From Clostridia bacterium (GTDB lineage Bacteria; Bacillota; Clostridia; Saccharofermentanales; Saccharofermentanaceae), in assembly GCA_024403735.1 (NCBI GenBank), contig JAKSRG010000007.1:19430-83429 (forward strand): a stretch of 64,000 nt of DNA, given 5' to 3'. The notes beneath the pieces are model-generated. The model saw nothing but the letters and a program-made list of their open reading frames with translations. It ran no database searches and was not told the origin of the DNA. Positions 6,290-58,623 of this stretch are shown here, piece by piece (the first letter of the stretch is position 1; each line of letters opens with the position of its first letter). A program made the translations under genes and the position numbers.

Positions 6290-7489
6290 ATGCGTGTATG
6301 GGTGTGTAAAATATGTGATAGTAACAATCAAGTTGCTGATACATTACCAACTAGTTTGATTTGTGGGGTATGTGGCGCTGAATTTTCTGTTAACGAAGTA
6401 TTCGATATTGAGGCGACATCAAGTTCAAAAACAACTGAATATAGTTGTGAGAAATCAACAGAAAGAAAGAGATTATCGAAGACAGGCAAATTATTCTTGG
6501 CTGCAATAAGTTTGTTAATCCTTTTAGGAATCTCAGTTACTGTATATTTTGGTTATATTAAGCCTAATCATATTTTTGAAAGTAAAAAAACAAATAGTTC
6601 TGTTAAAGAAACCAAAGATAAGAAAGATCATGATGGTGGTAATGGTAGTAAGCTAGAGATTGGAGTTGTTCCTGATTTTACACGTAATCTTGATGACGTT
6701 GAGCCGACGGAAGAAACTACCGTGGAAACAGAAGAAACCACTGATGATTCTTGTGAACTTAATTTGGATAATTTCATTTACAGATTATTTGTTCTTATTC
6801 TTGAGAGGGAACCTAATCAATCGGAGAATGATTATTGGCAGAACAGGTTCATGATGGGCCTTTCTGGTTCTGATTGTGCTTATGAGTTTTTTATTAGTAA
6901 CGAATATGCTATCTTGCAAGATACAGATGAAGAATATGTTACAAAATTGTATTTAGTATTTTTGGATAGAGAACCAGATACTGATGGATTCAATTATTGG
7001 ATTAATCAGCTTAATAATGGAAGTAGTAGAGACGAAATATTCGATGGCTTTGCTAATTCTGTGGAATGGGCAGATCTCTGTTTGTTACGAGGTATTTTGG
7101 CAGGAGGAACTGCTGTGCCTTCCATTGAAGTTGAACCATCAGATGAGGTTGTTTCATTTGTTAAAAGCATTTATTTTAAGAGTTCATCAACTGAATTAAG
7201 TGCTGATGAATTATACGATTGCGCTAAAGAGTTAGTAAACAGACGAATTACTTGTGGTGAGGTAATACACTCATTTATTTTTTCTGATTATAATGTGACT
7301 TCTTATGGTACAGATAGAGATTTTGTTGTAGCACTTTATCAGATAATGTTTGATAGAATTCCAAGTGAAGAAGAGATTAATTATTGGACTAATCAATTGA
7401 ATGGTGATACAGATTATGAAACTTTATTTAAGCAATTTGCAGATTCAGATGAATTTAAAAAGATATGTTTCAAGTATTCAATAGGATGA
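6290..7489 (+). CDS. membrane protein: N-terminal Zn-ribbon, one TM helix, three extracytoplasmic DUF4214-type repeats
   Basis: The Zn-ribbon is CKIC-N15-CGVC at residues 6-28. The hydrophobic segment is LFLAAISLLILLGISVTVYFGYI. The motif (R/D)EP(N/D)..(E/G)..YW.N(Q/R) appears three times. Confidence 0.8.
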   Translation: MRVWVCKICDSNNQVADTLPTSLICGVCGAEFSVNEVFDIEATSSSKTTEYSCEKSTERKRLSKTGKLFLAAISLLILLGISVTVYFGYIKPNHIFESKKTNSSVKETKDKKDHDGGNGSKLEIGVVPDFTRNLDDVEPTEETTVETEETTDDSCELNLDNFIYRLFVLILEREPNQSENDYWQNRFMMGLSGSDCAYEFFISNEYAILQDTDEEYVTKLYLVFLDREPDTDGFNYWINQLNNGSSRDEIFDGFANSVEWADLCLLRGILAGGTAVPSIEVEPSDEVVSFVKSIYFKSSSTELSADELYDCAKELVNRRITCGEVIHSFIFSDYNVTSYGTDRDFVVALYQIMFDRIPSEEEINYWTNQLNGDTDYETLFKQFADSDEFKKICFKYSIG

Positions 7490-7525
7490 TCGATTAGATA
7501 TTGCATTTATTTGAGGAGCCTTGTT

Positions 7526-7576
7526 ATGAAAAATCTAGATATGACTGGTAGTTTCGTTGTTTTTGATTGTAGTTAA
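7526..7576 (+). CDS. possible 16-codon micro-ORF (MKNLDMTGSFVVFDCS)
   Basis: GAGGAG at 7513-7518 lies 7 nt upstream of ATG 7526, with TAA at 7574-7576. It sits in the 125-nt gap before the first vWA gene. There is no homology evidence. Confidence 0.25.
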   Translation: MKNLDMTGSFVVFDCS

Positions 7577-7614
7577 TTGATTTAAGAAAGGCCTTTGTAA
7601 GTATTGGAGGGTTA

Positions 7615-8277
7615 ATGGATATATATAGGACAGAATACTTTGTTGATATCGTGATGGTTATTGATTCAACTAATAGTATGGGACGGTTTATTAGAAGACT
7701 TGAGAATGATGCTTCGATTTTTTATCAAAAGTATCTTGAATGGATGGAACAGGGTGGCACTGCATTACCGCAGGTGAGAATAAAAGTAGTTGGTTTTTGT
7801 GATTACAAATGTGGTTGTGAACCGGTTATATGTGAGAGTACCTTCTTTAGTTTGCCGGTTGAAAATGCTGCATTCCATGAGGCTGTAAGTTGTATTGAAG
7901 TTAATGCTATTGGTGACGCTCCTAAGTGTGCTTATGAGGCTTTGGCGTTAGCGATGCAATCTGATTGGATGAAGTATGGTGCTAAGCGTAGACAAGTGAT
8001 ACTTCTATTTACTGATACACCAGTAAATTCTTTTGGAGATTCAAATGCGCTAGTGAATTCTATTCGCTTGAGAGGTATGTGGAACGGATTGAATGGTCTA
8101 GAAACGATTGAACAGCAAGCTAAGCGAATGATCGTTTTCGTTCCAAATGTTGCGTCATGGTCTTTTATACAGGATTGGGACCAAGTTTGGATATCTTACG
8201 TACGTCCTGGTGATGGTTGTAGTGAAGTTGATGTGAATCTGATAATTGAATTGATATCAAATGCTATTGGTATGTGA
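7615..8277 (+). CDS. cytosolic von Willebrand factor A (vWA)-like protein, paralog 1
   Basis: 220 aa with GGAGG at 7606-7610. The MIDAS-like motif is VMVIDSTNSM (DxSxS). Other blocks are VRIKVVGFCDY, YEALALAMQSDW and RRQVILLFTDTP. No signal peptide or TM. Confidence 0.8.
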   Translation: MDIYRTEYFVDIVMVIDSTNSMGRFIRRLENDASIFYQKYLEWMEQGGTALPQVRIKVVGFCDYKCGCEPVICESTFFSLPVENAAFHEAVSCIEVNAIGDAPKCAYEALALAMQSDWMKYGAKRRQVILLFTDTPVNSFGDSNALVNSIRLRGMWNGLNGLETIEQQAKRMIVFVPNVASWSFIQDWDQVWISYVRPGDGCSEVDVNLIIELISNAIGM

Positions 8278-8313
8278 TTAATACATCTTATAGGTTGCTT
8301 TGAAGGAGAGCAT

Positions 8314-9045
8314 ATGGGTATTTTCGAACGAGAACTTTTAGAGAGAAAGAGTTGTTATATTGATGTTGTTTTGGTTATCGATTCAACTGGTAGCATGGAT
8401 ACTGTTATTGATAGAGTAAAAAAAGGTGCTTTGAATTTTTACTTTAAGTGTGTAAATAGTTCATTTGTTACGGAAATGTCGAAGTGTGGCATGGATTTTT
8501 CGCAGGTAAGGATTAAAGTTATCTGTTTTCGTGATTACAAATATGATGGACCTTATGCTATGAAAGAAAGTAGATTTTATGTTTTGCCAGATGAGGTAGA
8601 AGCGTTTCAATCTTTCTTGAATGATATGGAAGGAAAAGGTGGAGGGGACAATCAAGAATGTGCATGTGAAGCGTTAGCTTTAGCAATACGTTCTGATTGG
8701 ACTAATGAAGGGGATAAACGAAGACATGTAATCCTATTACTAACTGATTCTCCAACTTGTGAGTTGGGAGATATTGGCAGGGTTAGTAGCGAATACTATC
8801 CGCCTAATATGCCTAGTAATATTTCTGAATTGCATAGTATGTGGAATGGTTTAGGTGGACAAGAATTGTCTGGAATGCCTGATCAGCGAGCTAAACGAAT
8901 GTTGGTTTTTGCTCCCCCTCATTCAGATTTGGAATTTGTGTATGCTGATTATTGGGATAAAGTTTATTTAGAAGAAACTAGTTTTTCAGATGATATTATT
9001 GACCCTGATATGTTACTACAGTTTATGTATTGTGCAATTGATTAG
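8314..9045 (+). CDS. cytosolic vWA-like protein, paralog 2
   Basis: 243 aa with blocks VLVIDSTGSM, VRIKVICFRDY, CEALALAIRSDW, RRHVILLLTDSP and MWNG. It is clearly paralogous to 7615-8277 and 9064-9780. Confidence 0.8.
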   Translation: MGIFERELLERKSCYIDVVLVIDSTGSMDTVIDRVKKGALNFYFKCVNSSFVTEMSKCGMDFSQVRIKVICFRDYKYDGPYAMKESRFYVLPDEVEAFQSFLNDMEGKGGGDNQECACEALALAIRSDWTNEGDKRRHVILLLTDSPTCELGDIGRVSSEYYPPNMPSNISELHSMWNGLGGQELSGMPDQRAKRMLVFAPPHSDLEFVYADYWDKVYLEETSFSDDIIDPDMLLQFMYCAID

Positions 9046-9063
9046 AGTTGGAGGTGTTGTAAT

Positions 9064-9780
9064 ATGAGTTTATGGTCAAATGAGATGGTTTCAGCATTTT
9101 CGTATGATTGTTGTGCGGATATTGTATTTGTTGTTGATGCCTCTGCTAAGATGAAGCCTATTATCGATGATGTTAAGGATAAAATTCCTGCTATTTGTGA
9201 GAATATATTGAATTATATGGATCAGATGGGCAAACCGGTGCCAGAGCCAAGGGTAAAGATTATAGCCTTTCGAAATTATAGATATGATGGTCAAGATGCT
9301 ATGTTTGAGAGTAAGTTTTTTGATTGGTCTAAGGAACGAACTGAGTTTCTAGAATGTTTGAACGGAATTGAAGCTAGACATGGTGGATATTATGATAGTA
9401 GTGCATATGAAGCATTGGCTTTAGCGATGCGTTCCGATTGGAATGAAGCAGGTCGTGTACGAAGACATGTGATTATTCTTATTACCGATTCCCCGGCAAG
9501 TCCTTTGGGCGATCCCCAAATAATGAGTAATCCTTATTATCCTCAAAATATGCCGAAAAACTTAGAACAATTGGAAAGAATGTGGAATGGAGAAGATCAG
9601 GAAGAATTGCCTGGAATGTCAGTGAATAGAGGTGGTCGATTATTTATTCTTGCGCCATATGTTCCTTCATGGTCTGCCTTGGAGGGTTGGGAGCAGATTT
9701 GGAATATTTATTCACACGCTGGAGCAGATCTTAATGAGTTCGATTTTGATACAATATCTGAACTCCTAGTAGATGTATGA
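9064..9780 (+). CDS. cytosolic vWA-like protein, paralog 3 (degenerate MIDAS)
   Basis: 238 aa with the same conserved blocks (VKIIAFRNYRYDG, YEALALAMRSDW, RRHVIILITDSP, MWNG). The first motif reads VFVVDASAKM, that is DxSxK instead of DxSxS. Confidence 0.8.
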   Translation: MSLWSNEMVSAFSYDCCADIVFVVDASAKMKPIIDDVKDKIPAICENILNYMDQMGKPVPEPRVKIIAFRNYRYDGQDAMFESKFFDWSKERTEFLECLNGIEARHGGYYDSSAYEALALAMRSDWNEAGRVRRHVIILITDSPASPLGDPQIMSNPYYPQNMPKNLEQLERMWNGEDQEELPGMSVNRGGRLFILAPYVPSWSALEGWEQIWNIYSHAGADLNEFDFDTISELLVDV

Positions 9781-50751: not shown

Positions 50752-50775
50752 TTAAAGCTTGAATTTGTTTTCTAG

Positions 50776-50805
50776 ATGGCGATCAGAAATGGTCGCCATT
50801 TTTTA
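50776..50805 (+). terminator. intrinsic terminator
   Basis: ATGGCGA / TCGCCAT form the stem, followed by T6. Confidence 0.75.
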
Positions 50806-52080: not shown

Positions 52081-54651
52081 GTGGTAGCAGTGAATCAATT
52101 TAAGTTTTTGGTAAAAAAAATAGGTGATAGTTTATCATCAGATCAGCCACGTGTATATTTCTGTGCTACTGCTAATGATTATAAGAAGTACTTTGAAGAG
52201 ATTAGCGATGACATATTGTTTAACAAAAGAGATGTAGCTATATATTATCTAGACAATCCTGATATGAGAATAGACGAGGCAGATATAGAGGCGAAAGAAG
52301 AGTTTGTAGCTTGTCTAGAAGAGATGCAGTTGTTTGTGGTTTTGCTCACTTATGATTTCTTGTTAACAGATAATAGAGCTAGATTGTTTGATTATGAGAT
52401 AGCTATAGCAAAGAATATTCCAGTTTTTATCATTGCTCTCGATGAGGGATTAAGCAAATCTGTTCCGGGATTTAATGATTTGATTAAGAGAAGACAATAT
52501 GTTAACAAGAAATCTATTGACTATGATCATATCTCCTATGACAAGCATTTAAGTTCACTTTTGGCTTCTTTTCTTGTTAATGATGAATTGAGAAGTGAAG
52601 TGAGAGATGCTTTTGATTCATATATATTTCTAAGTTATCGCAAGAAAGATCGTAAATATATTAAAGAAATAATGAAGAATATTCATGAGAATGAAGCATG
52701 CAGAGATGTTGCTATCTGGTATGATGAATATATTTCGCTTGGTGAAGATTTCAGTTCATCTATTAAGAGTGCTTTTGATAAGAGTAATCTATTCGTACTT
52801 GCTGTAACACCTAGTCTCCTAGAGGAGAATAATTATGTCATGAGAATAGAATATCCTATGGCTATTAAGAATAATGTTACAGTCCTACCTATAGAAGTTG
52901 TTCCGACAAACAGAGATATGTTAGAGAAATACTATGAAGGTATTCCTGAATGTATTTCTGGTTCTTCTGAGATAGCTTCATGGTTAGAAACATTTGCAAA
53001 AACATCCCTGAGAACTCTAAATAATAGTGCAAGACATTTGTATCTTATAGGATTAGCATATCTGCATGGTATTGACGTAGAGATAGATTATTCAAGAGCA
53101 ATTGATTTATTGACACGCGCTGCAGAGATGAATCTCCCTGAGGCCTACGAAGAACTCATATCAATATATGACAATGGATTAGGCGTAAATGTGGATTACG
53201 ATATTTCTATTAAATGGCACGAGAAGTATCTGAAGTATTTAAAGGATTTGTATCTTAAGTGTCCAAGTGATGATAATAGAAGAGTTCTACTAAATAAAGG
53301 TAACGATCTGATTGATCATTACAATTATGCGGGAAAATATGAATTATGTATACGCTTCTGTTTGGAATTATTAGAATTTGCTCAAGAAAAAAGTGATACT
53401 AGATATAAAGGCTTAATTTATTTATTCTTATCAAGATCATATATAGGTATTGGTAAATTTGATGAAGCTCAACAGTGTTGTGAAAATGCTATTGATGTTT
53501 TTGATTATATGATAGAGGCGACAACTCATAATTATGATTATATTAAGTTAGCTGATTGTTATTTAAGATTAGCTGATGTGTTTGTTTATGATAGACGTTA
53601 TGATGAATGTCAAAAGAGTATACATAAGGCTAAAGAGATCATAGAATCAATTAGTACTGAAGATTCGACTAATGAAGAGTGGATAAGTATTCAAAGATTA
53701 TTAGGTTCATGTTACAGGAAATTATCTGATATCTTGTTTATGGTAGATTCTTATGAAGACGCAAAAAAATTTGGGTTAATGCGAATAGAGATCCGTAAGA
53801 AGATAGCAATGATGACTAGGAAAAACCAGGATTTTGCTTTATTGGCTGATGCTTATCATGATTATGGTTCATGGTTAAACAGATTTGGTGATTCAGATGA
53901 TGCTCTTGCGTATTTTGAGAATGCAGTGGGAATTGCAAATGATCTTGAAGATGAAGAAGATCCTGATTCACTTATTAGATTAGTATCTATTTATGATAGT
54001 ATTGGATACTACTTTGAGATGGCAGGTGCACTGGAAGAAGCCAAAGAGTTCTATTTGGATACTATAGAATGGATGCATAAGGTGCTTGGTAAGTGCGATA
54101 TAGTTACTAACTGGATTAGACTTGTACATCAATATAGTCGTATGGGTTGTTTGCTAAGAGCAGAAGGTAATAATGAGGAAGCCAAGGAATATTTATTTAA
54201 AGCACTAGATATATATACAAAATACAAGACAAACAACGAGAACACTTATGATTTGCGATTATTATCAAAAATCTATATGTACTTAGGAGATGTATTCTGT
54301 AAAGAGAATTGTTTTGTAAAAGCAAAACAGTACTATGAAAAAGTGTATGAGATAAGCATTTATATCTATGAAATAGCTCATACTTCAAACAACATGAGAC
54401 TGGTTGCAGCTTCTATCAGAAAATTTGCTTGGCTATTCCAGTTAGAAGGCAGATGGGCCGAAGCAGAAAAGAAGCATATTGAATGTTTGGATATTTATTT
54501 GACTTTGTGTAATAAGTTGCATCTGGAAAGTGACATTAGGATTGTTAATCGAATTTACCAGGATTTATTACGAATTTGTGATGCAATAAATGATGCAGAT
54601 AAAAAAGCCTTTTATGAGTGCGAATTAAAGAAGTTCACAGAAGGCATATAA
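52081..54651 (+). CDS. tandem TIR-like domains, Sel1-like repeats and a long TPR-like solenoid (no NTPase motif seen)
   Basis: Residues ~180-275 (IFLSYRKKDRKYIKEIM...VAIWYDEYISLGEDFSSSIKSAFDKSNLFVLAVTPSLLEENNYVMRIEYPMAI...VLPIEV) match the TIR_2 pattern. Residues ~24-125 form a more divergent copy. LIGLAYLHGIDVEIDYSRAIDLLTRAA...GLGVNVDYDISIKWHEKY are Sel1-like. The remaining ~480 aa are helical-repeat-like. The start is uncertain between GTG 52081 and GTG 52090. Confidence 0.75.
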   Translation: MVAVNQFKFLVKKIGDSLSSDQPRVYFCATANDYKKYFEEISDDILFNKRDVAIYYLDNPDMRIDEADIEAKEEFVACLEEMQLFVVLLTYDFLLTDNRARLFDYEIAIAKNIPVFIIALDEGLSKSVPGFNDLIKRRQYVNKKSIDYDHISYDKHLSSLLASFLVNDELRSEVRDAFDSYIFLSYRKKDRKYIKEIMKNIHENEACRDVAIWYDEYISLGEDFSSSIKSAFDKSNLFVLAVTPSLLEENNYVMRIEYPMAIKNNVTVLPIEVVPTNRDMLEKYYEGIPECISGSSEIASWLETFAKTSLRTLNNSARHLYLIGLAYLHGIDVEIDYSRAIDLLTRAAEMNLPEAYEELISIYDNGLGVNVDYDISIKWHEKYLKYLKDLYLKCPSDDNRRVLLNKGNDLIDHYNYAGKYELCIRFCLELLEFAQEKSDTRYKGLIYLFLSRSYIGIGKFDEAQQCCENAIDVFDYMIEATTHNYDYIKLADCYLRLADVFVYDRRYDECQKSIHKAKEIIESISTEDSTNEEWISIQRLLGSCYRKLSDILFMVDSYEDAKKFGLMRIEIRKKIAMMTRKNQDFALLADAYHDYGSWLNRFGDSDDALAYFENAVGIANDLEDEEDPDSLIRLVSIYDSIGYYFEMAGALEEAKEFYLDTIEWMHKVLGKCDIVTNWIRLVHQYSRMGCLLRAEGNNEEAKEYLFKALDIYTKYKTNNENTYDLRLLSKIYMYLGDVFCKENCFVKAKQYYEKVYEISIYIYEIAHTSNNMRLVAASIRKFAWLFQLEGRWAEAEKKHIECLDIYLTLCNKLHLESDIRIVNRIYQDLLRICDAINDADKKAFYECELKKFTEGI

Positions 54652-54730: not shown

Positions 54731-54759
54731 TTTACAAACATATGTTCGCGTGTTAGAAT
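54731..54759 (+). promoter_or_regulatory. sigma-A-type promoter overlapped by a LexA/DinR-type (Cheo-like) box
   Basis: TTTACA (54731-54736), a 17-nt spacer, then TAGAAT (54754-54759). CAAACATATGTTCG at 54735-54748 differs at one position from the palindrome CGAACATATGTTCG. Confidence 0.55.
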
Positions 54760-54788
54760 TCCTTCACAGTATATGAGGAGGTAATGAC

Positions 54789-55529
54789 ATGCTTAATAGT
54801 ACGGTTAATAAGTTTAGTTATGATGGAACTATTGAAGGGTTTCTATCAGTATTTGATTATTGTATAGAGAATAAGGTTATGCCTGTAAATATTAAGCCTG
54901 ATTACCTCGTCTATGGGACTATTATTGAGCGTGAGTATTTACGAATTCCAACTAATTATCAGCTAGCAGACAGAATGTATAGATTAGTTGGCAGACGTTC
55001 ATCTCCTGAAGTTCAGCAGATGATGAGCGATTGTTTTCTAACAAGTCTTCCAGATATGGAGATGGATTTGTTTATTATGATCTGTAAGGCTATTAAGTAT
55101 GGTGCTGTCATTGCTGAGGATTATAAGGATCAGTTACTGCATCGAATCCAGTTCGCGATTAGGGATTTATATAGAGAGGCACATAGTGTTGTTCATGCTG
55201 TTAATGCAGTGAAGATAGACGATGTGTCTTATGCAATTATTAACCCACGTAATAATGTCCTTCCAATAATTGAGAAGTCTTTGCTTAATAACTATGATTA
55301 CGATGATTTTATCGTCTATGACAAGAGACATCATATTGCTTTGCTGAGGATTGATGATAGGAATTCTATGGTAGATATTAAGCGTATTATGACCTGTGAG
55401 GTTAATTCCATTGAGGATTTGAGATCTAGGATATGGGTATATTTCCGAGAGACAACCAATATGCCTGCTAGGGATGTGCGGGGTATGAGGGCAGATTCAC
55501 TTACGAGATTATGGTATATCGCTAGCTAA
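54789..55529 (+). CDS. TIGR03915/DUF4130-family 'probable DNA metabolism protein'
   Basis: The N-terminus ...FSYDGTIEGFLSVFDYC... and the ~245 aa size fit my memory of this family. GAGGAGG lies 7 nt upstream. No radical-SAM partner gene is present in the window. Confidence 0.6.
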   Translation: MLNSTVNKFSYDGTIEGFLSVFDYCIENKVMPVNIKPDYLVYGTIIEREYLRIPTNYQLADRMYRLVGRRSSPEVQQMMSDCFLTSLPDMEMDLFIMICKAIKYGAVIAEDYKDQLLHRIQFAIRDLYREAHSVVHAVNAVKIDDVSYAIINPRNNVLPIIEKSLLNNYDYDDFIVYDKRHHIALLRIDDRNSMVDIKRIMTCEVNSIEDLRSRIWVYFRETTNMPARDVRGMRADSLTRLWYIAS

Positions 55530-56200: not shown

Positions 56201-56377
56201 TTTGAATTACAATCTTGAGTTGTCTAGCAAAATGTTAAAAAATATTGCGATTGTTTCTTGTTTTGTTGCCAAAAGCTAGAAACATTTGCCTAAAACTTGA
56301 CTAATCTTGAATATTGACTTGCTTTGTTTTATCATTATAAGGCAGTAAAATATATCCACATGGAGGAGTAGATTATT

Positions 56378-57439
56378 ATGAAGAAGCTTAAGACTTTTTT
56401 GGTTTTGCTTATTTGTCTTGCTATGATGGCAGGTTCATTAGTAGCATGTGATTCTTCTTCAAGCAAGAAGTCATCTAAGAAGGATAAGAAGGTCGAGAAA
56501 GAAGACGACGAAGACGAAGATGACGACGATGAAGATGATGATGACGATGATGATGAAGACGAAGATGACGATGATGAAGATGACGACGATGATGACGACG
56601 ACAAGCCTTCAAAGCCAGCTAAGCCTTCAATCGATGATGACGATGATGATCCAATAATCATTGATGATGATGACGATGATGATATTCGTGCATCTGATTT
56701 GTCAATTGACGAGCAGGTTCTTTACGATGATGGTGATATCGTAATTACAGCTACAGGTATCGTTTACGATGATTGGTATGGCGATAAGCTCGAAGTTTTG
56801 ATTGAGAATAATTCAGATGTTATGGTTACATTCAGCTGTTCATACATGCTTATCAATAACTGTGTAAATGATTATATTGGTTTGTATGAGGATGTTAAGG
56901 CTGGTGGTAAGACATATGCTACACTCTCATTGAACTCAGATGATATGAATGAATACTATGGAATCAAGAACTTCGGTCAGATTGATCTTGCTTTCAAGGG
57001 TTACGATGATAACTACAACACAGTATTCCAGACAGATAACATCACAATTAAGACTAACAAGTTTGATAAGATGGATGAGGCTACACCATTTGATGGTACA
57101 GTTCTCGTAGATGAAGAAGGCGTATATGCTGTTATCAAGATGGGCGAAGTAAGCGATTGGTCAACAGAGCTTCTCGTATTCGTACATAACGATACAGATA
57201 AGACAGTTTATCTCTCAACAAATTCTTTGACAATTAATGGTTTTGAAGTTGATGGTTATTTGAGTGCTTCAGTTCCAGCTGGTGCTTATGGCGCAGATAC
57301 AGTTTGGATTTATTCTGATGATCTCGAAGAGAGCCACATCGATGAGATTGAGACAATTGAGATGTCTGTTAAGGTTATGGATTATGATAGTTACAAGACA
57401 CTCTTCACAACAGATGAGGTTGAGATCCCTGTAAACTAA
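56378..57439 (+). CDS. lipoprotein with a long poly-Asp/Glu linker and two repeat domains (paralog family)
   Basis: The lipobox is GSLVAC. It has 34 consecutive D/E residues plus two further D6-D7 runs. The domain blocks LIENNSD...INNCVNDY... are shared with 10815-11738 and 57625-58623. Confidence 0.8.
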   Translation: MKKLKTFLVLLICLAMMAGSLVACDSSSSKKSSKKDKKVEKEDDEDEDDDDEDDDDDDDEDEDDDDEDDDDDDDDKPSKPAKPSIDDDDDDPIIIDDDDDDDIRASDLSIDEQVLYDDGDIVITATGIVYDDWYGDKLEVLIENNSDVMVTFSCSYMLINNCVNDYIGLYEDVKAGGKTYATLSLNSDDMNEYYGIKNFGQIDLAFKGYDDNYNTVFQTDNITIKTNKFDKMDEATPFDGTVLVDEEGVYAVIKMGEVSDWSTELLVFVHNDTDKTVYLSTNSLTINGFEVDGYLSASVPAGAYGADTVWIYSDDLEESHIDEIETIEMSVKVMDYDSYKTLFTTDEVEIPVN

Positions 57440-57624
57440 TTATTAGTTAAATAGTTTGACTTGATTACTGCCGCAGAGCTTTATGAGCTTTGTGGCAGTT
57501 TTTTGTGCAATAAAAGGTTGTATTTTGCCTTTTGAATATATGTGTTTTGAAAAGAATACTTTAGAATGATACTATAAAGAAGACTGAGAAAATTTTGACA
57601 AGTCATAAGGGAGATATAAGATTT

Positions 57625-58623
57625 ATGAAAAGATTTGCACTTGCTATTATTGCGAGCCTTCTTGTTCTGAGTGTTGCTAGTTGTAGTGTGATTGATCAGC
57701 TTAATGAGATGACTGCTAGTGAAAAGAAGATTATTACTGAGCAGGATATTGATTATGAAGAAGATATCGCTGAGACTGATACTGAATTGGATGAAGCAGA
57801 AGAGGATGTTGAAGAGGATGGCGATGGATATAATTTTGGTGTTCATAAAGTAGCACCATGGGAGATAAAGCCAACTTTGATATGTAATGATAAAGATATT
57901 ATTGTTACAGCAGAGGAGTTAATAGAAGCTGGCAGAAATGGAGATGCTTATGCCCTTGTTCTCTGGGTTGGAAATGATAGAAAAGATGACATTATCCTTG
58001 GTATTCATGAGTTGTATGTCAATAATTTCATCTGGAGATATGATGATGAAGAATACGAAGTGATTAAGGCTGGTGAACAGAAGGAAGTATATTTGTATTT
58101 CCATCAGGATGACCTTAGTGAATATATGTTAAGTGATATTGGTCTCGTATCTTTATCTGTTTCTGCATATACAGATAACAACTATAAGCTATTTGAGAGC
58201 GATCTCGTTGAGATGGAGACATCAGGATTTAAGACAATGTCAATCCCACGCTTACGAGGAGGATATGCGGTTGTAGATGATGATAAAGCTCTGATTCAGA
58301 TCGTAAGATATGGTAAGACAAACGATGAGAGAAAAATCGGAATATTCGCTACTAATAAGACAGACAAAAAGATTTTTATATATGGTGAGAATATTACGAT
58401 AAACGGTAAGAGCATTACGTCATACACAGAGATGGATATTCCAGCAGGTAAATCCCAGTTCTTCTATTACGATTTCGAAGACGATTATGATGTTTATGCT
58501 GCTATTGGTAGTTATGATTTTAATAGTATGGTGATTTCTGTTGGCTATAGAACAGATAACACATTGGATTTTGATAACTATGGTGTAGTAGCTATTGATT
58601 TCACAGAAGATATAGAACACTAA
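57625..58623 (+). CDS. lipoprotein, paralog of 56378-57439 and 10815-11738
   Basis: ATG 57625 follows AAGGGAG. The lipobox is LSVASC. It has an acidic linker followed by two repeat domains. Confidence 0.75.
   Translation: MKRFALAIIASLLVLSVASCSVIDQLNEMTASEKKIITEQDIDYEEDIAETDTELDEAEEDVEEDGDGYNFGVHKVAPWEIKPTLICNDKDIIVTAEELIEAGRNGDAYALVLWVGNDRKDDIILGIHELYVNNFIWRYDDEEYEVIKAGEQKEVYLYFHQDDLSEYMLSDIGLVSLSVSAYTDNNYKLFESDLVEMETSGFKTMSIPRLRGGYAVVDDDKALIQIVRYGKTNDERKIGIFATNKTDKKIFIYGENITINGKSITSYTEMDIPAGKSQFFYYDFEDDYDVYAAIGSYDFNSMVISVGYRTDNTLDFDNYGVVAIDFTEDIEH

What the first reader, a model, noticed from the sequence alone, without database searches (positions are those of the whole stretch)
52081..54651. 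856-aa tandem-TIR / Sel1 / TPR protein with no NTPase: defence-like, in an AT-rich insert between housekeeping genes
**Domains.**
- Residues ~180-275 match the bacterial TIR_2 pattern, including the conserved acidic position in ...NYVMRIEYPMAI.
- Residues ~24-125 form a second, more divergent TIR-like copy (VYFC...VAIYY...LFVVLLT...LFDYEIAIAKNIPVFIIAL).
- Two Sel1-like repeats follow, and then ~480 aa of TPR-like helical repeats.
- I see no Walker A/B motif, so this is not a classical STAND/Avs protein. No Thoeris ThsA-like partner is nearby.

**Context.**
- The gene starts 19-28 nt after an aldo/keto reductase gene with no intervening terminator.
- It is visibly more AT-rich than its neighbours.
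- It is followed by an SOS-box-controlled DNA-metabolism gene.

**Interpretation.** TIR domains in bacteria are commonly NAD+-consuming or signal-generating effectors of anti-phage systems. A single-polypeptide layout of repeat sensor plus two TIR domains is, to my knowledge, not a characterised system.
Basis: partly seen in the sequence, partly recalled or inferred. Interest (0 to 1): 0.68.

Follow-up and report, generated by a model that had tools for sequence, protein, structure and literature searches.

The report
Tandem-TIR, Sel1, TPR protein of gut Clostridia
The gene is real and encodes two TIR domains followed by Sel1 and TPR-like repeats; it is a diverged member of a very large, uncharacterised protein family of gut and rumen Clostridia that resembles an immune receptor lacking the usual ATPase switch, but nothing in its surroundings shows that it defends against phages.

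Summary
ORF 52081/52090..54651 encodes TIR-like module 1, a TIR_2 domain, two Sel1 repeats and about 470 aa of helical repeats. It has no P-loop and no transmembrane segment.

The protein is not an orphan. Its N module defines about 2,000 protein clusters (50% identity), nearly all from gut or rumen Clostridia. Several copies per genome and tandem arrays are common.

No partner gene is conserved. Neighbours are mostly housekeeping, and the family is essentially absent from phage, plasmid and viral-contig collections. Across the family, gene GC equals flank GC.

Many members carry 47-aa repeats that are up to 73% identical to each other, including at third codon positions, with variation confined to a few positions. 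This resembles the diversifying receptor repeats of fungal NLRs. The window's copy is diverged: degenerate repeats, module-1 Glu replaced by Asp, 31-36% identity to its relatives.

Whether the invariant module-2 Glu is the catalytic Glu is unresolved. Two profile alignments differ by two residues.

A single-protein TIR+TPR anti-phage system (E. coli TIR-II) and a two-gene BcTir/Tpr system are already published. I therefore rate this a new variant of a known kind.

Best reading (confidence about 0.45): a repeat-sensor-gated TIR NADase. Interest is moderate.

The parts
52090..54651 (+). Coding sequence of the tandem-TIR/Sel1/TPR protein: 853 aa from GTG 52090. The longest-ORF start at GTG 52081 gives 856 aa. 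The stop codon is at 54649-54651.
   Evidence: ORF list; sequence at the start; database entry P0001 of 853 aa at 100% identity; the same gene with the same neighbours on Logan contig SRR17543913_17571.
52078..52084 (+). Shine-Dalgarno-like AGGGTGG, 5 nt upstream of GTG 52090. The alternative GTG at 52081 lies inside it.
   Evidence: Read directly from the sequence.
52138..52509 (+). Module 1 (residues 17-140): a diverged TIR-like domain. In the window protein, residues that are conserved across the family are changed: CHP to ATA, P85 to L, E101 to D.
   Evidence: BLASTP against module 2, E=5e-7; hhalign 97.9% probability; AF2 model pLDDT 91.6 with an alternating beta/alpha topology; Foldseek PDB hits mostly TIR domains; TIR_2 hits for 6 of 34 homologous N modules; column counts.
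52390..52392 (+). Codon GAT for Asp101. At this position of the family alignment, 90 of 118 sequences have Glu, 18 have Asp and 10 have another residue. It aligns with the invariant Glu of module 2.
   Evidence: Column counts; hhalign of A2 against A4; hhalign of A2 against canonical TIRs places this column on the canonical catalytic Glu.
52606..52905 (+). Module 2 (residues 173-272): TIR_2 domain and the most conserved part of the protein. Homologues average 59% identity to the window protein here. S182, D187, W210, D212, E213, G218, N248 and E254 are invariant.
   Evidence: Pfam TIR_2, 33.9 bits above the cut-off of 28; profile hits to AbTir, BtTir and SARM1/TIR-1 chains; hhalign against canonical TIRs 98.2% probability; conservation.
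52723..52749 (+). Predicted BB-loop of module 2 (residues 212-220, DEYISLGED), after strand betaB. Within module 2, this is the only segment with pLDDT below 50 in the full-length model (residues 215-219).
   Evidence: Full-length AF2 model and its secondary structure. Calling it the BB-loop is an inference from its position after the WYDE motif, which it shares with AbTir.
52849..52851 (+). It is invariant in 118 of 118 sequences and is the candidate catalytic Glu, but its register is unresolved.
   Evidence: Invariance; helix 249-260; the Pfam TIR_2 register places canonical Glu column 71 on residue 252 and Glu254 on column 73; hhalign of module 2 gives the same result, while hhalign of module 1 supports equivalence through a 2-residue loop insertion.
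53026..53244 (+). Two Sel1-like repeats (residues 313-385), strongly conserved across the family. G321, A323, Y324, L325, D329, E331, A352 and G363 are invariant.
   Evidence: Pfam Sel1, 33.7 bits above the cut-off of 30.7; solved Sel1 proteins 6ok3 and 4bwr; invariant columns; regional conservation.
53245..54648 (+). TPR-like alpha-solenoid tail (residues 386-853), about 23 helices. It is the least conserved region (19% identity to homologues). In this copy the family's 47-aa periodicity is nearly erased (self-identity 0.14).
   Evidence: Pfam TPR_12, TPR_10 and TPR_2; AF2 helices; Foldseek hits to LGN, OGT, Ctr9 and kinesin-light-chain-type TPR solenoids; repeat analysis; conservation.

Best explanation
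The gene encodes a cytoplasmic, single-polypeptide sensor-effector. It belongs to a large paralogous family of Clostridia built like a receptor without a nucleotide switch.

- **Sensor.** The variable C-terminal TPR-like solenoid is proposed to bind a protein ligand. A phage or other invader component is the most likely ligand.
- **Assembly.** Ligand binding would bring the N-terminal heads together or release them. Each head is TIR module 1, TIR module 2 and the Sel1 pair.
- **Effector.** TIR-TIR assembly would order the BB-loop and switch on NAD+ cleavage by the highly conserved module 2. The result would be either NAD+ depletion or production of an ADPR-derived signal.
- **Module 1.** In this protein module 1 is diverged and has Asp in place of the family's Glu. 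It is proposed to serve as a non-catalytic or regulatory TIR partner of module 2.

Shown: the architecture, the duplication, the conservation gradient, the family's size, the paralogy and the repeat dynamics.

Inferred: NADase activity, the ligand, oligomerisation and any immune role.
For: - **Enzyme-grade conservation of module 2.** It is a bona fide TIR_2 domain. It shows profile similarity to the NADases AbTir, BtTir and SARM1/TIR-1 and 98% hhalign probability against canonical TIRs. S182, D187, W210, D212-E213, G218, N248 and E254 are invariant in 118 sequences. This level of conservation suits an enzyme better than a passive scaffold.
- **Conservation gradient.** Identity to the window protein falls from module 2 (59%) to the Sel1 pair (48%), module 1 (33%) and the tail (19%). 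This fits a constant effector head joined to a variable recognition tail.
- **Repeat dynamics.** The tail has a 47-aa period in 117 of 120 homologues. Adjacent units are up to 73% identical, against about 10% after shuffling. Variation is confined to a few positions of the unit. DNA units reach 77% identity, and third codon positions are 64-74% identical. This indicates concerted evolution with copy-number change. The same is documented for recognition repeats of fungal NLRs, including kinesin-light-chain-type TPRs (PMC4986451).
- **Paralogy and clustering.** About 2,068 clusters at 50% identity carry the N module. At least 534 loci exist in species-representative genomes, and 8 assemblies have 2-3 loci among the top 79. 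Tandem arrays occur in 11 of 78 loci. Some neighbours are TIR-LRR, TIR-NB-ARC-TPR and TIR-only proteins.
- **Precedents.** The single-protein TIR+TPR system TIR-II protects E. coli, and its TIR active site is required (PMC11350192). BcTir/Tpr pairs a Glu-less TIR with an NADase-TPR protein (bioRxiv 2023.05.26.542521).
- **Model features.** The full-length AF2 model is confident (pLDDT 89.4, pTM 0.80). Within module 2 only the BB-loop is disordered, which I take to be typical of inactive TIRs (the comparison rests on general knowledge, not on a test here).
Against: - **No genomic signature of defence.** No partner gene is conserved; 524 neighbours fall into 449 clusters. Among 148 ORFs at positions +-1 and +-2, only about a dozen hit PADLOC models. 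Five of those are sigma-factor cross-hits. The rest of the neighbours are sigma factors, histidine kinases, transporters and oxidoreductases.
- **Not on mobile elements.** There is no match in 50,697 phage or 72,556 plasmid records. Only 2 of 2.9 million viral contigs carry a member.
- **No compositional sign of transfer.** Family genes have the same GC as their flanks (mean difference 0.000).
- **No defence-model match.** PADLOC has no model for the protein beyond weak hits to ThsB-like TIR models (best 3e-4) and to a SAVED-TIR model (0.024), plus a generic TPR hit.
- **Catalytic Glu uncertain.** The canonical catalytic Glu column maps to variable residue 252 (Arg here) in two of three alignments. 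The invariant Glu is two residues later.
- **The window's copy may be relaxed or repurposed.** Its repeats are degenerate, and it lies in an apparent operon with a housekeeping-type oxidoreductase.
- **No experimental data exist for any member.**
Confidence: 0.45

Rival explanations
1. The family is a non-immune, housekeeping or regulatory family of Clostridia. The TIR head acts as an NAD-linked signalling enzyme or an oligomerisation scaffold. The Sel1/TPR solenoid recruits cellular client proteins, for example in envelope, sporulation or stress pathways.
For: - Chromosomal contexts are dominated by housekeeping and regulatory genes, and there is no defence-island signal.
- GC equals that of the flanks.
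- The family is absent from phage and plasmid records and nearly absent from viral contigs (2 of 2.9 million).
- In the window, the gene follows an oxidoreductase gene by 28 nt with no terminator between them.
- Sel1 and TPR are generic protein-interaction modules.
Against: - Gene position is not conserved between genomes (449 clusters for 524 neighbours). That is unusual for a core pathway component.
- Copy number per genome varies, tandem paralogues occur, and the repeats are homogenised at the DNA level with hypervariable positions. These features point to diversification rather than a fixed client.
- Members cluster with TIR-LRR and TIR-NB-ARC-TPR proteins.
Confidence: 0.27
2. The protein is a Thoeris-like signal generator whose effector is encoded elsewhere. 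The TIR head would make a cADPR-type or ADPR-conjugate signal on sensing a trigger. An unlinked receptor-effector, for example a CARF/Card1-type nuclease, would execute the response.
For: - There is a weak ThsB-like PADLOC hit (3e-4).
- A CARF/Card1-like nuclease lies directly upstream in 3 of 78 loci: L013, L023 and L079.
- Many newly described Thoeris types use diverse effectors (bioRxiv 2025.12.03.692087).
Against: - No effector gene is linked in the window or in 75 of the 78 loci.
- Thoeris ThsB proteins are, to my knowledge, short TIR proteins without a large repeat sensor.
- Two of the three CARF loci are orthologous to each other, so they count as about two independent cases.
Confidence: 0.13
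3. The window's copy is a decaying or repurposed relic of the family. Its sensor is no longer functional and its activity is unrelated to the family's original role.
For: - It is only 31-36% identical to its best relatives.
- Module 1 has lost family-conserved residues.
- The repeat periodicity is almost erased: 0.14, against a family median of 0.31 and about 0.10 after shuffling.
- GC3 of 0.26 is well below that of its neighbours.
Against: - The 2.56-kb ORF is intact.
- Every invariant residue of module 2 and of the Sel1 pair is retained.
- AF2 folds the whole chain confidently.
- An identical copy with the same neighbours exists in an independent sequencing run.
Confidence: 0.1

Closest known systems
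TIR-II anti-phage system of E. coli (single-protein TIR + TPR; Nat Commun 2024, PMC11350192)
   Same: TIR and TPR lie in one polypeptide. About 70% of TIR-II members have no ATPase. No partner gene is required. The TIR active-site residues are required for defence.
   Different: - The sequence relationship could not be tested, because the accessions are in supplements that are not held.
- TIR-II is reported in Caudoviricetes. This family has no hit in phage or plasmid records.
- The present family also has a second TIR module, a conserved Sel1 pair and 47-aa repeats, and it is found mainly in Clostridia.
BcTir/Tpr two-gene system of Bacillus cereus (bioRxiv 10.1101/2023.05.26.542521)
   Same: A TIR whose catalytic Glu is naturally substituted (E to K there, E to D in module 1 here) is combined with an NAD+-cleaving domain attached to a TPR domain that tunes its activity. 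The solved 'Bacillus cereus TIR protein' 8fz9 is among the fold matches of module 1.
   Different: - BcTir/Tpr has two separate genes, both required. Here there is one polypeptide.
- The NADase domain of BcTpr is described there as a glycosidase domain, not as TIR_2.
- Homology was not tested. That system has no Sel1 pair.
Bacterial TIR NADases AbTir, BtTir, PdTIR and BtpA (Pfam TIR_2)
   Same: Module 2 matches the TIR_2 profile and AbTir/BtTir at the sequence level, including the WYDE...G BB-loop motif. Module 1 matches their folds.
   Different: - Those proteins carry one TIR with a coiled-coil or no partner domain.
- The position of the catalytic Glu relative to this family's invariant Glu differs by two residues in the most parsimonious alignment.
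STAND/NLR-type receptors with TIR effectors and TPR sensors (Avs, bacterial TIR-NB-ARC-TPR, plant TNLs, fungal NLRs with highly internally conserved TPR repeats; PMC4986451)
   Same: All share an N-terminal TIR effector and a C-terminal superstructure-forming repeat sensor. Kinesin-light-chain-type TPRs show high internal conservation, repeat-number variation and a few hypervariable positions. A true TIR-NB-ARC-TPR gene lies next to a family member in L011.
   Different: There is no NTPase or NOD module at all. Oligomerisation cannot be nucleotide-gated. A second TIR and a Sel1 pair occupy the place of the NOD.
Thoeris ThsB
   Same: Both are TIR-domain proteins. There are weak hits to PADLOC ThsB models (3e-4 and 0.01).
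   Different: No ThsA or other effector gene is adjacent in the window or in most related loci. The present protein also carries a large repeat region.

Membership tests
TIR domain superfamily (Pfam TIR_2, PF13676) | Match to the family profile above the curated gathering score | tested here: met
   Module 2 scores 33.9 bits against a cut-off of 28, ORF residues 182-274. Module 1 of the window protein has no hit of its own. Six of 34 homologous N modules do, and hhalign links module 1 to module 2 at 97.9% probability.
TIR domain superfamily (Pfam TIR_2, PF13676) | Flavodoxin-like alternating beta/alpha fold resembling solved TIR domains | tested here: met
   AF2 models are confident (pLDDT 91.6 and 89.4). 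For module 1, Foldseek PDB hits are mostly TIRs (RPS4, AbTir, BtpA, TLR1, PdTIR, SARM1) at E about 1e-4 and TM 0.5-0.68. Rank 1 is a generic GTPase. Module 2 was not searched on its own.
TIR NADases (AbTir/SARM1 type) | Catalytic Glu on helix alphaC at the canonical position | tested here: inconclusive
   AbTir E208 and the Glu of a canonical TIR both end at TIR_2 profile column 71. Family residue 252 (variable; Arg here) falls on column 71, and invariant E254 on column 73. hhalign of module 2 agrees with this. hhalign of module 1 instead places the homologous Glu on the canonical Glu through a 2-residue loop insertion. E254 is the only invariant acidic residue of the helix.
TIR NADases (AbTir/SARM1 type) | NAD+ cleavage activity | not testable with these tools
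   This needs a biochemical assay.
Thoeris | thsB-type TIR gene adjacent to an effector gene (SIR2-SLOG, Macro-TM and others) | tested here: not met
   The window neighbours are an aldo/keto reductase, a DUF4130 protein and shikimate kinase. No neighbour is conserved across 78 loci. The PADLOC ThsB hit is only 3e-4.
STAND / Avs / NLR-like NTPases | P-loop NTPase (NACHT, NB-ARC or other STAND) between effector and repeats | tested here: not met
   There is no NTPase family in the Pfam, NCBIfam or PADLOC scans. There is no Walker A string, and only 2 of 120 homologues have one.
TIR-II (E. coli TIR+TPR defence system) | TIR and TPR domains in one protein acting alone | tested here: met
   Architecture; no conserved partner.
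TIR-II (E. coli TIR+TPR defence system) | Sequence homology to the validated TIR-II protein | not tested
   The accession numbers are only in supplementary files that are not held. One indirect hint argues against close kinship: TIR-II is reported in phages, whereas this family's head has no phage or plasmid match.
TIR-II (E. coli TIR+TPR defence system) | Protection against phage | not testable with these tools
   This needs an experiment.
BcTir/Tpr | Two-gene operon, both genes required | tested here: not met
   This is a single ORF. The resemblance is functional only: a Glu-less TIR combined with a conserved NAD-cleaving module and TPRs.
Sel1-like repeat proteins | Sel1 profile match above the gathering score | tested here: met
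   33.7 bits against a cut-off of 30.7. 6ok3 and 4bwr align over residues 314-383.
Receptors with highly internally conserved, concertedly evolving repeats (fungal NLR type) | High identity between repeats within one protein, with repeat-number variation | tested here: inconclusive
   For the family this is met in part. Seventeen of 78 loci have at least 50% identity between adjacent units, the maximum is 72-73%, and DNA identity reaches 77%. This is below the 85% criterion used for fungi. For the window protein it is not met (0.14).
Defence-island residents | Enrichment of known defence genes in the neighbourhood | tested here: not met
   148 neighbours from 78 loci contain three CARF nucleases, two or three MADS components, one AbiEii and five sigma-factor cross-hits. 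The rest are housekeeping. No formal background rate was computed.

The most novel reading that the evidence does not exclude
Gut and rumen Clostridia maintain a large, rapidly diversifying repertoire of intracellular receptors that lack a NOD module. Each has a tandem-TIR head, a Sel1 pair and a concertedly evolving 47-aa TPR array. The second TIR and the Sel1 pair would replace the nucleotide-switch module of NLRs as the assembly device. The two TIR modules would form a built-in asymmetric pair that completes an NADase active site only on ligand-driven clustering. This would be a bacterial counterpart of TLR/TNL repertoires that uses a different activation logic. The invariant Glu may be displaced by two residues from the canonical catalytic position.
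Probability: 0.25. Interest if true: 0.75.

Novelty: new variant of a known kind. Interest (0 to 1): 0.5.

Why it matters
If the family is immune, it would be one of the most abundant TIR-based systems in the dominant Firmicutes of animal guts, organisms in which defence systems have hardly been tested. It would also be missed by island-based discovery, because it is not found in defence islands and has no partner gene. A recent systematic TIR survey explicitly discarded standalone TIR proteins.

Mechanistically, the family would show how a TIR effector can be gated by repeats without a STAND NTPase, and what a covalently linked second TIR contributes.

If the family is not immune, it is a cautionary case: a TIR domain plus repeats is not sufficient to call defence. 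It would then point to NAD-linked signalling in the normal physiology of Clostridia.

The window's own copy is a diverged member, so by itself it is of moderate interest.

Tried and rejected
- **Strain or species comparison to test the 'insert' idea.** Exact look-ups of the two flanking proteins found only the same Logan contig and one NCBI assembly without DNA. A metagenome scan with the aldo/keto-reductase protein returned 80 loci at 64% identity or less over at least 245 aa (one 115-aa fragment reached 70%). None carried tyrS, the TIR gene, DUF4130 or aroK nearby. There is no usable synteny.
- **Insertion scars.** Only short chance repeats are present, and the window has no tRNA.
- **Conserved partner gene.** None was found.
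- **Defence models.** PADLOC gives only weak TIR-model hits (ThsB-like, SAVED-TIR) and a generic TPR hit. NCBIfam gives nothing relevant.
- **Phage, plasmid and viral-contig searches.** No match, no match, and 2 loci respectively.
- **A solved structure with the same overall architecture.** The full-length Foldseek and profile searches return only generic TPR and Sel1 proteins. PDB 9m0n/9umd, an 824-aa 'Tetratricopeptide repeat protein', weakly matches the TIR profile at its N-terminus (E=0.15). It could not be inspected, and no paper cites it.
- **Direct comparison with TIR-II.** The sequences were not obtainable.
- **Fixing the catalytic Glu by sequence.** HMMER against PDB, Pfam fragment mapping and hhalign give two registers that differ by 2 residues. 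The tools return no coordinates, so I could not superpose structures.
- **STAND/Avs reading.** Rejected, because there is no NTPase.
- **Secreted Tcp-like host-modulating effector.** Considered unlikely. There is no signal peptide or hydrophobic segment and the protein is large and repeat-rich. This was not otherwise tested.

Full report
**1. The observation**

The ORF is present as described: 52081..54651, plus strand, 856 aa.

- The sequence around the start reads TAAGGGTGGTAGCAGTG. This places an AGGGTGG ribosome-binding site 5 nt before a GTG at 52090.
- The 853-aa product from that start is the form held in the protein collection (P0001, 100% identity). It is also the form on an independent Logan contig with the same neighbours.
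- I use P0001 numbering below.

Pfam places these domains above their gathering cut-offs (ORF numbering in this list):

- TIR_2 at residues 182-274: 33.9 bits against a cut-off of 28.
- Sel1 at residues 321-351: 33.7 bits against 30.7.
- TPR_12: 81.8 bits in five stretches, with TPR_10 and TPR_2.

Solved Sel1 proteins align over residues 314-383, which is two repeats. No NTPase family appears in Pfam, NCBIfam or PADLOC. There is no Walker A string and no hydrophobic segment.

**2. The second TIR**

It is correct.

- The protein's own two modules align by BLASTP at E=5e-7.
- The family alignment of the N module (A2) matches that of module 2 (A4) by hhalign at 97.9% probability, E=3e-13. The conserved Asp after strand A and the helix-C Glu fall in the same columns.
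- Six of 34 homologous N modules hit Pfam TIR_2 on their own. The window's does not.
- An AlphaFold2 model of the N module is confident (pLDDT 91.6, pTM 0.86) and has the alternating strand/helix order of a flavodoxin-like fold.
- Its PDB matches at E about 1e-4 are mostly TIR domains: RPS4, AbTir, BtpA, TLR1, PdTIR, SARM1 and a Bacillus cereus TIR. TM-scores reach 0.68. The first hit is a generic GTPase, so the fold evidence alone would be weak.

**3. The family**

The protein is a diverged member of a very large family.

- A word-indexed search returned 1,816 hits from a capped candidate list. Apart from the window's own entry (P0001), the 120 best listed are 28-42% identical and carry TIR_2 and TPR-type repeats, most of them also Sel1.
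- An exhaustive HMMER search with the N-module profile found 2,068 clusters (50% identity) at E<=1e-10. The module is almost always at residue 1, and the profile matches twice per protein.
The best 79 are almost all from gut or rumen Clostridia: Oscillospiraceae, Lachnospiraceae, Acutalibacteraceae, Ruminococcus, Gemmiger, Pseudoflavonifractor and Faecalibacterium. There is one Spirochaetaceae MAG and one Muribaculaceae MAG.
- Eight assemblies contribute 2-3 loci to those 79. Eleven of 78 loci hold two or three members within the fetched stretch, some in tandem.

**4. Conservation pattern**

Identity of homologues to the window protein varies by region:

| Region | Identity to window protein |
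|---|---|
| TIR module 2 | 59% |
| Sel1 pair | 48% |
| Module 1 | 33% |
| Repeat tail | 19% |

- In module 2, S182, D187, W210, D212, E213, G218, N248 and E254 are invariant in 118 sequences.
- In module 1, the position homologous to E254 is Glu in 90 sequences, Asp in 18 (including the window protein) and another residue in 10.
- The window protein has also lost the family's CHP and PVT motifs.

**5. The catalytic Glu**

It is invariant and lies in the predicted alphaC helix, as the sixth residue of helix 249-260. Its register is not settled.

- HMMER aligns AbTir E208 and the BtTir Glu 2-4 residues upstream of it.
- I calibrated the Pfam TIR_2 profile with fragments ending at AbTir E208 and at the Glu of a canonical TIR from locus L005. 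Both end at profile column 71.
- Fragments of this family stop at column 66-67, at residues 247-248 (N247/N248). Ungapped extension then puts column 71 on residue 252 and E254 on column 73. Residue 252 is variable and is Arg in the window protein.
- hhalign of module 2 against nine canonical TIRs gives the same register. hhalign of module 1 instead inserts two residues in the preceding loop and puts the homologous Glu exactly on the canonical Glu.
- On a helical wheel, E254 shares a face with the conserved V250/M251 and M257/A258. Residues 252 and 253 are variable. This favours the loop-insertion reading, but it is an inference.
- A three-dimensional superposition would settle the point. The tools return no coordinates.

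**6. The repeat tail**

- The C-terminal region has a 47-residue period in 117 of 120 homologues. Adjacent units are 31% identical at the median and up to 73%, against about 10% after shuffling. Protein length ranges from 609 to 1,433 aa.
- Within one protein, the units differ at only a handful of positions.
- At the DNA level, 141-nt units are up to 77% identical. Third codon positions are 64-74% identical, so the similarity reflects recent duplication or gene conversion and not only protein constraint.
- This is the pattern described for the recognition repeats of fungal NLRs, including kinesin-light-chain-type TPRs. There it accompanies repeat-number polymorphism and positive selection on the binding surface (PMC4986451).
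- The values here are below the 85% criterion used in that work. I did not test for selection.
- The window protein's own tail has almost lost the periodicity (0.14).

**7. Genomic context**

In the window:

- The gene follows an aldo/keto-reductase-ferredoxin gene by 28 nt, with no terminator-like site between them.
- A clear terminator precedes that upstream gene (50774-50801). Co-transcription is therefore likely.
- Downstream lie a DUF4130/TIGR03915-type gene and the shikimate kinase gene.
- The gene is AT-rich: GC 0.323 and GC3 0.258, against 0.407 for the window.
- There are no flanking repeats, tRNA or mobility genes.

Across 78 related loci:

- 524 ORFs within four genes of the focal gene fall into 449 clusters, so no partner is conserved.
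- Of 148 ORFs at positions +-1 and +-2, PADLOC models at E<=1e-5 match only a small minority. The families shown are three CARF/Card1-type nucleases, two or three MADS components, one AbiEii and five 'MzaA' hits that Pfam shows to be sigma-70 factors.
- The remainder are histidine kinases, transporters, oxidoreductases and the like.
- Family genes have the same GC as their flanks: mean difference 0.000, sd 0.036.
- The tandem-TIR head has no tblastn match in 50,697 phage or 72,556 plasmid records. Only 2 of 2.9 million viral contigs carry a member.
- What does recur nearby is other TIR-repeat proteins: TIR-LRR (BspA type), TIR-NB-ARC-TPR, TIR-only proteins and paralogues of the family itself.

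**8. Structure**

- The full-length model is confident (pLDDT 89.4, pTM 0.80). It shows two alpha/beta modules, a two-hairpin Sel1 unit and about 23 further helices.
- Confidence falls below 50 at residues 215-219, which is the BB-loop position after WYDE, and in the inter-module linker at 143-147.
- Full-length Foldseek and profile searches of the PDB return only generic TPR and Sel1 proteins. No solved protein of the same overall build was found.

**9. Comparison with published work**

- E. coli TIR-II is a single-protein TIR+TPR system. It protects against phages, requires its TIR active site, and was called the most widespread of the systems tested. About 30% of its relatives also carry an ATPase (PMC11350192).
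- BcTir/Tpr of B. cereus is a two-gene system. A TIR with its Glu replaced by Lys works with an NAD+-cleaving protein whose TPR domain tunes the product (bioRxiv 10.1101/2023.05.26.542521).
- A recent systematic survey of TIR signalling systems discarded standalone TIR proteins. It also reports a Thoeris effector whose TPR domain may sense cADPR (bioRxiv 10.64898/2025.12.03.692087).
- A TIR joined to TPRs without an NTPase is therefore a known kind.
- I found no description of the tandem-TIR/Sel1/47-aa-repeat family of Clostridia. I could not obtain the TIR-II sequence to test kinship.

**10. Verdict**

- The best-supported mechanism is a repeat-sensor-gated TIR NADase, with module 1 acting as a non-catalytic partner in this copy.
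- The argument for a receptor role rests on conservation, paralogy and repeat dynamics. The argument against rests on context.
- Confidence is about 0.45. The main rival is a non-immune role, at about 0.27.
- I rate it a new variant of a known kind and give interest 0.5. The family as a whole is more interesting than the diverged copy in this window.

Noticed in passing
window 6290-9780: A second low-GC3 block (GC3 0.21-0.29). It holds a 399-aa protein with an N-terminal CxxC zinc-ribbon-like motif and three DUF4214 repeats. Three paralogous vWA-like proteins of 220-243 aa follow it. The function is unknown and the layout looks like an operon.
   Followed up: partly
window 54731-55529: A LexA (Cheo) box with one mismatch, CAAACATATGTTCG (54735-54748), lies between the hexamers of a promoter-like site, TTTACA-17-TAGAAT. 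It sits upstream of a DUF4130/TIGR03915-type 'putative DNA repair' gene that scores below the NCBIfam cut-off (84.8 against 112). To my knowledge this family is usually paired with a radical-SAM gene, and none is adjacent here. About 1.15 such boxes are expected per window by chance.
   Followed up: partly
window 56378-58623: Two consecutive lipoprotein-like ORFs. The first contains a poly-Asp/Glu tract of about 50 residues. The antisense 'poly-Ser' ORF at 56335-56661 is an artefact of that tract.
   Followed up: no
L048:9015-14051; L071:12992-15565; L011:7614-10109; L005:15563-15964: Other TIR-repeat proteins lie within 10 kb of family members:
- TIR + BspA-type LRR, 1,678 aa (L048) and 857 aa (L071)
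- TIR + NB-ARC + TPR, 831 aa (L011)
- a TIR-only protein of 133 aa (L005)

These Clostridia appear to hold mixed clusters of TIR-repeat genes.
   Followed up: partly
L013:8544-9788; L023:8563-9807; L079:8623-9897: A CARF/Card1-like nuclease gene lies directly upstream of the family member in three loci. Two of these loci are orthologous to each other. It could be a receptor-effector for a TIR-made signal, or a coincidence.
   Followed up: partly
L033:5305-13286; L042:9998-18475: Triple same-strand arrays of family members. The array in L042 comes from a Spirochaetaceae MAG, outside the usual range in Clostridia.
   Followed up: no
L022, L067, L004, L009, L018 (focal genes): In these members the 141-nt repeat units are 74-77% identical at the DNA level, including 67-74% at third codon positions. 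This implies recent unit duplication or gene conversion.
   Followed up: partly
PDB 9m0n / 9umd (not in the window): A solved 824-residue 'Tetratricopeptide repeat protein' (10 chains in two entries) weakly matches the module-2 TIR profile at its residues 16-84 (E=0.15). No paper in the library cites it. It may be a solved TIR-TPR protein worth comparing.
   Followed up: partly
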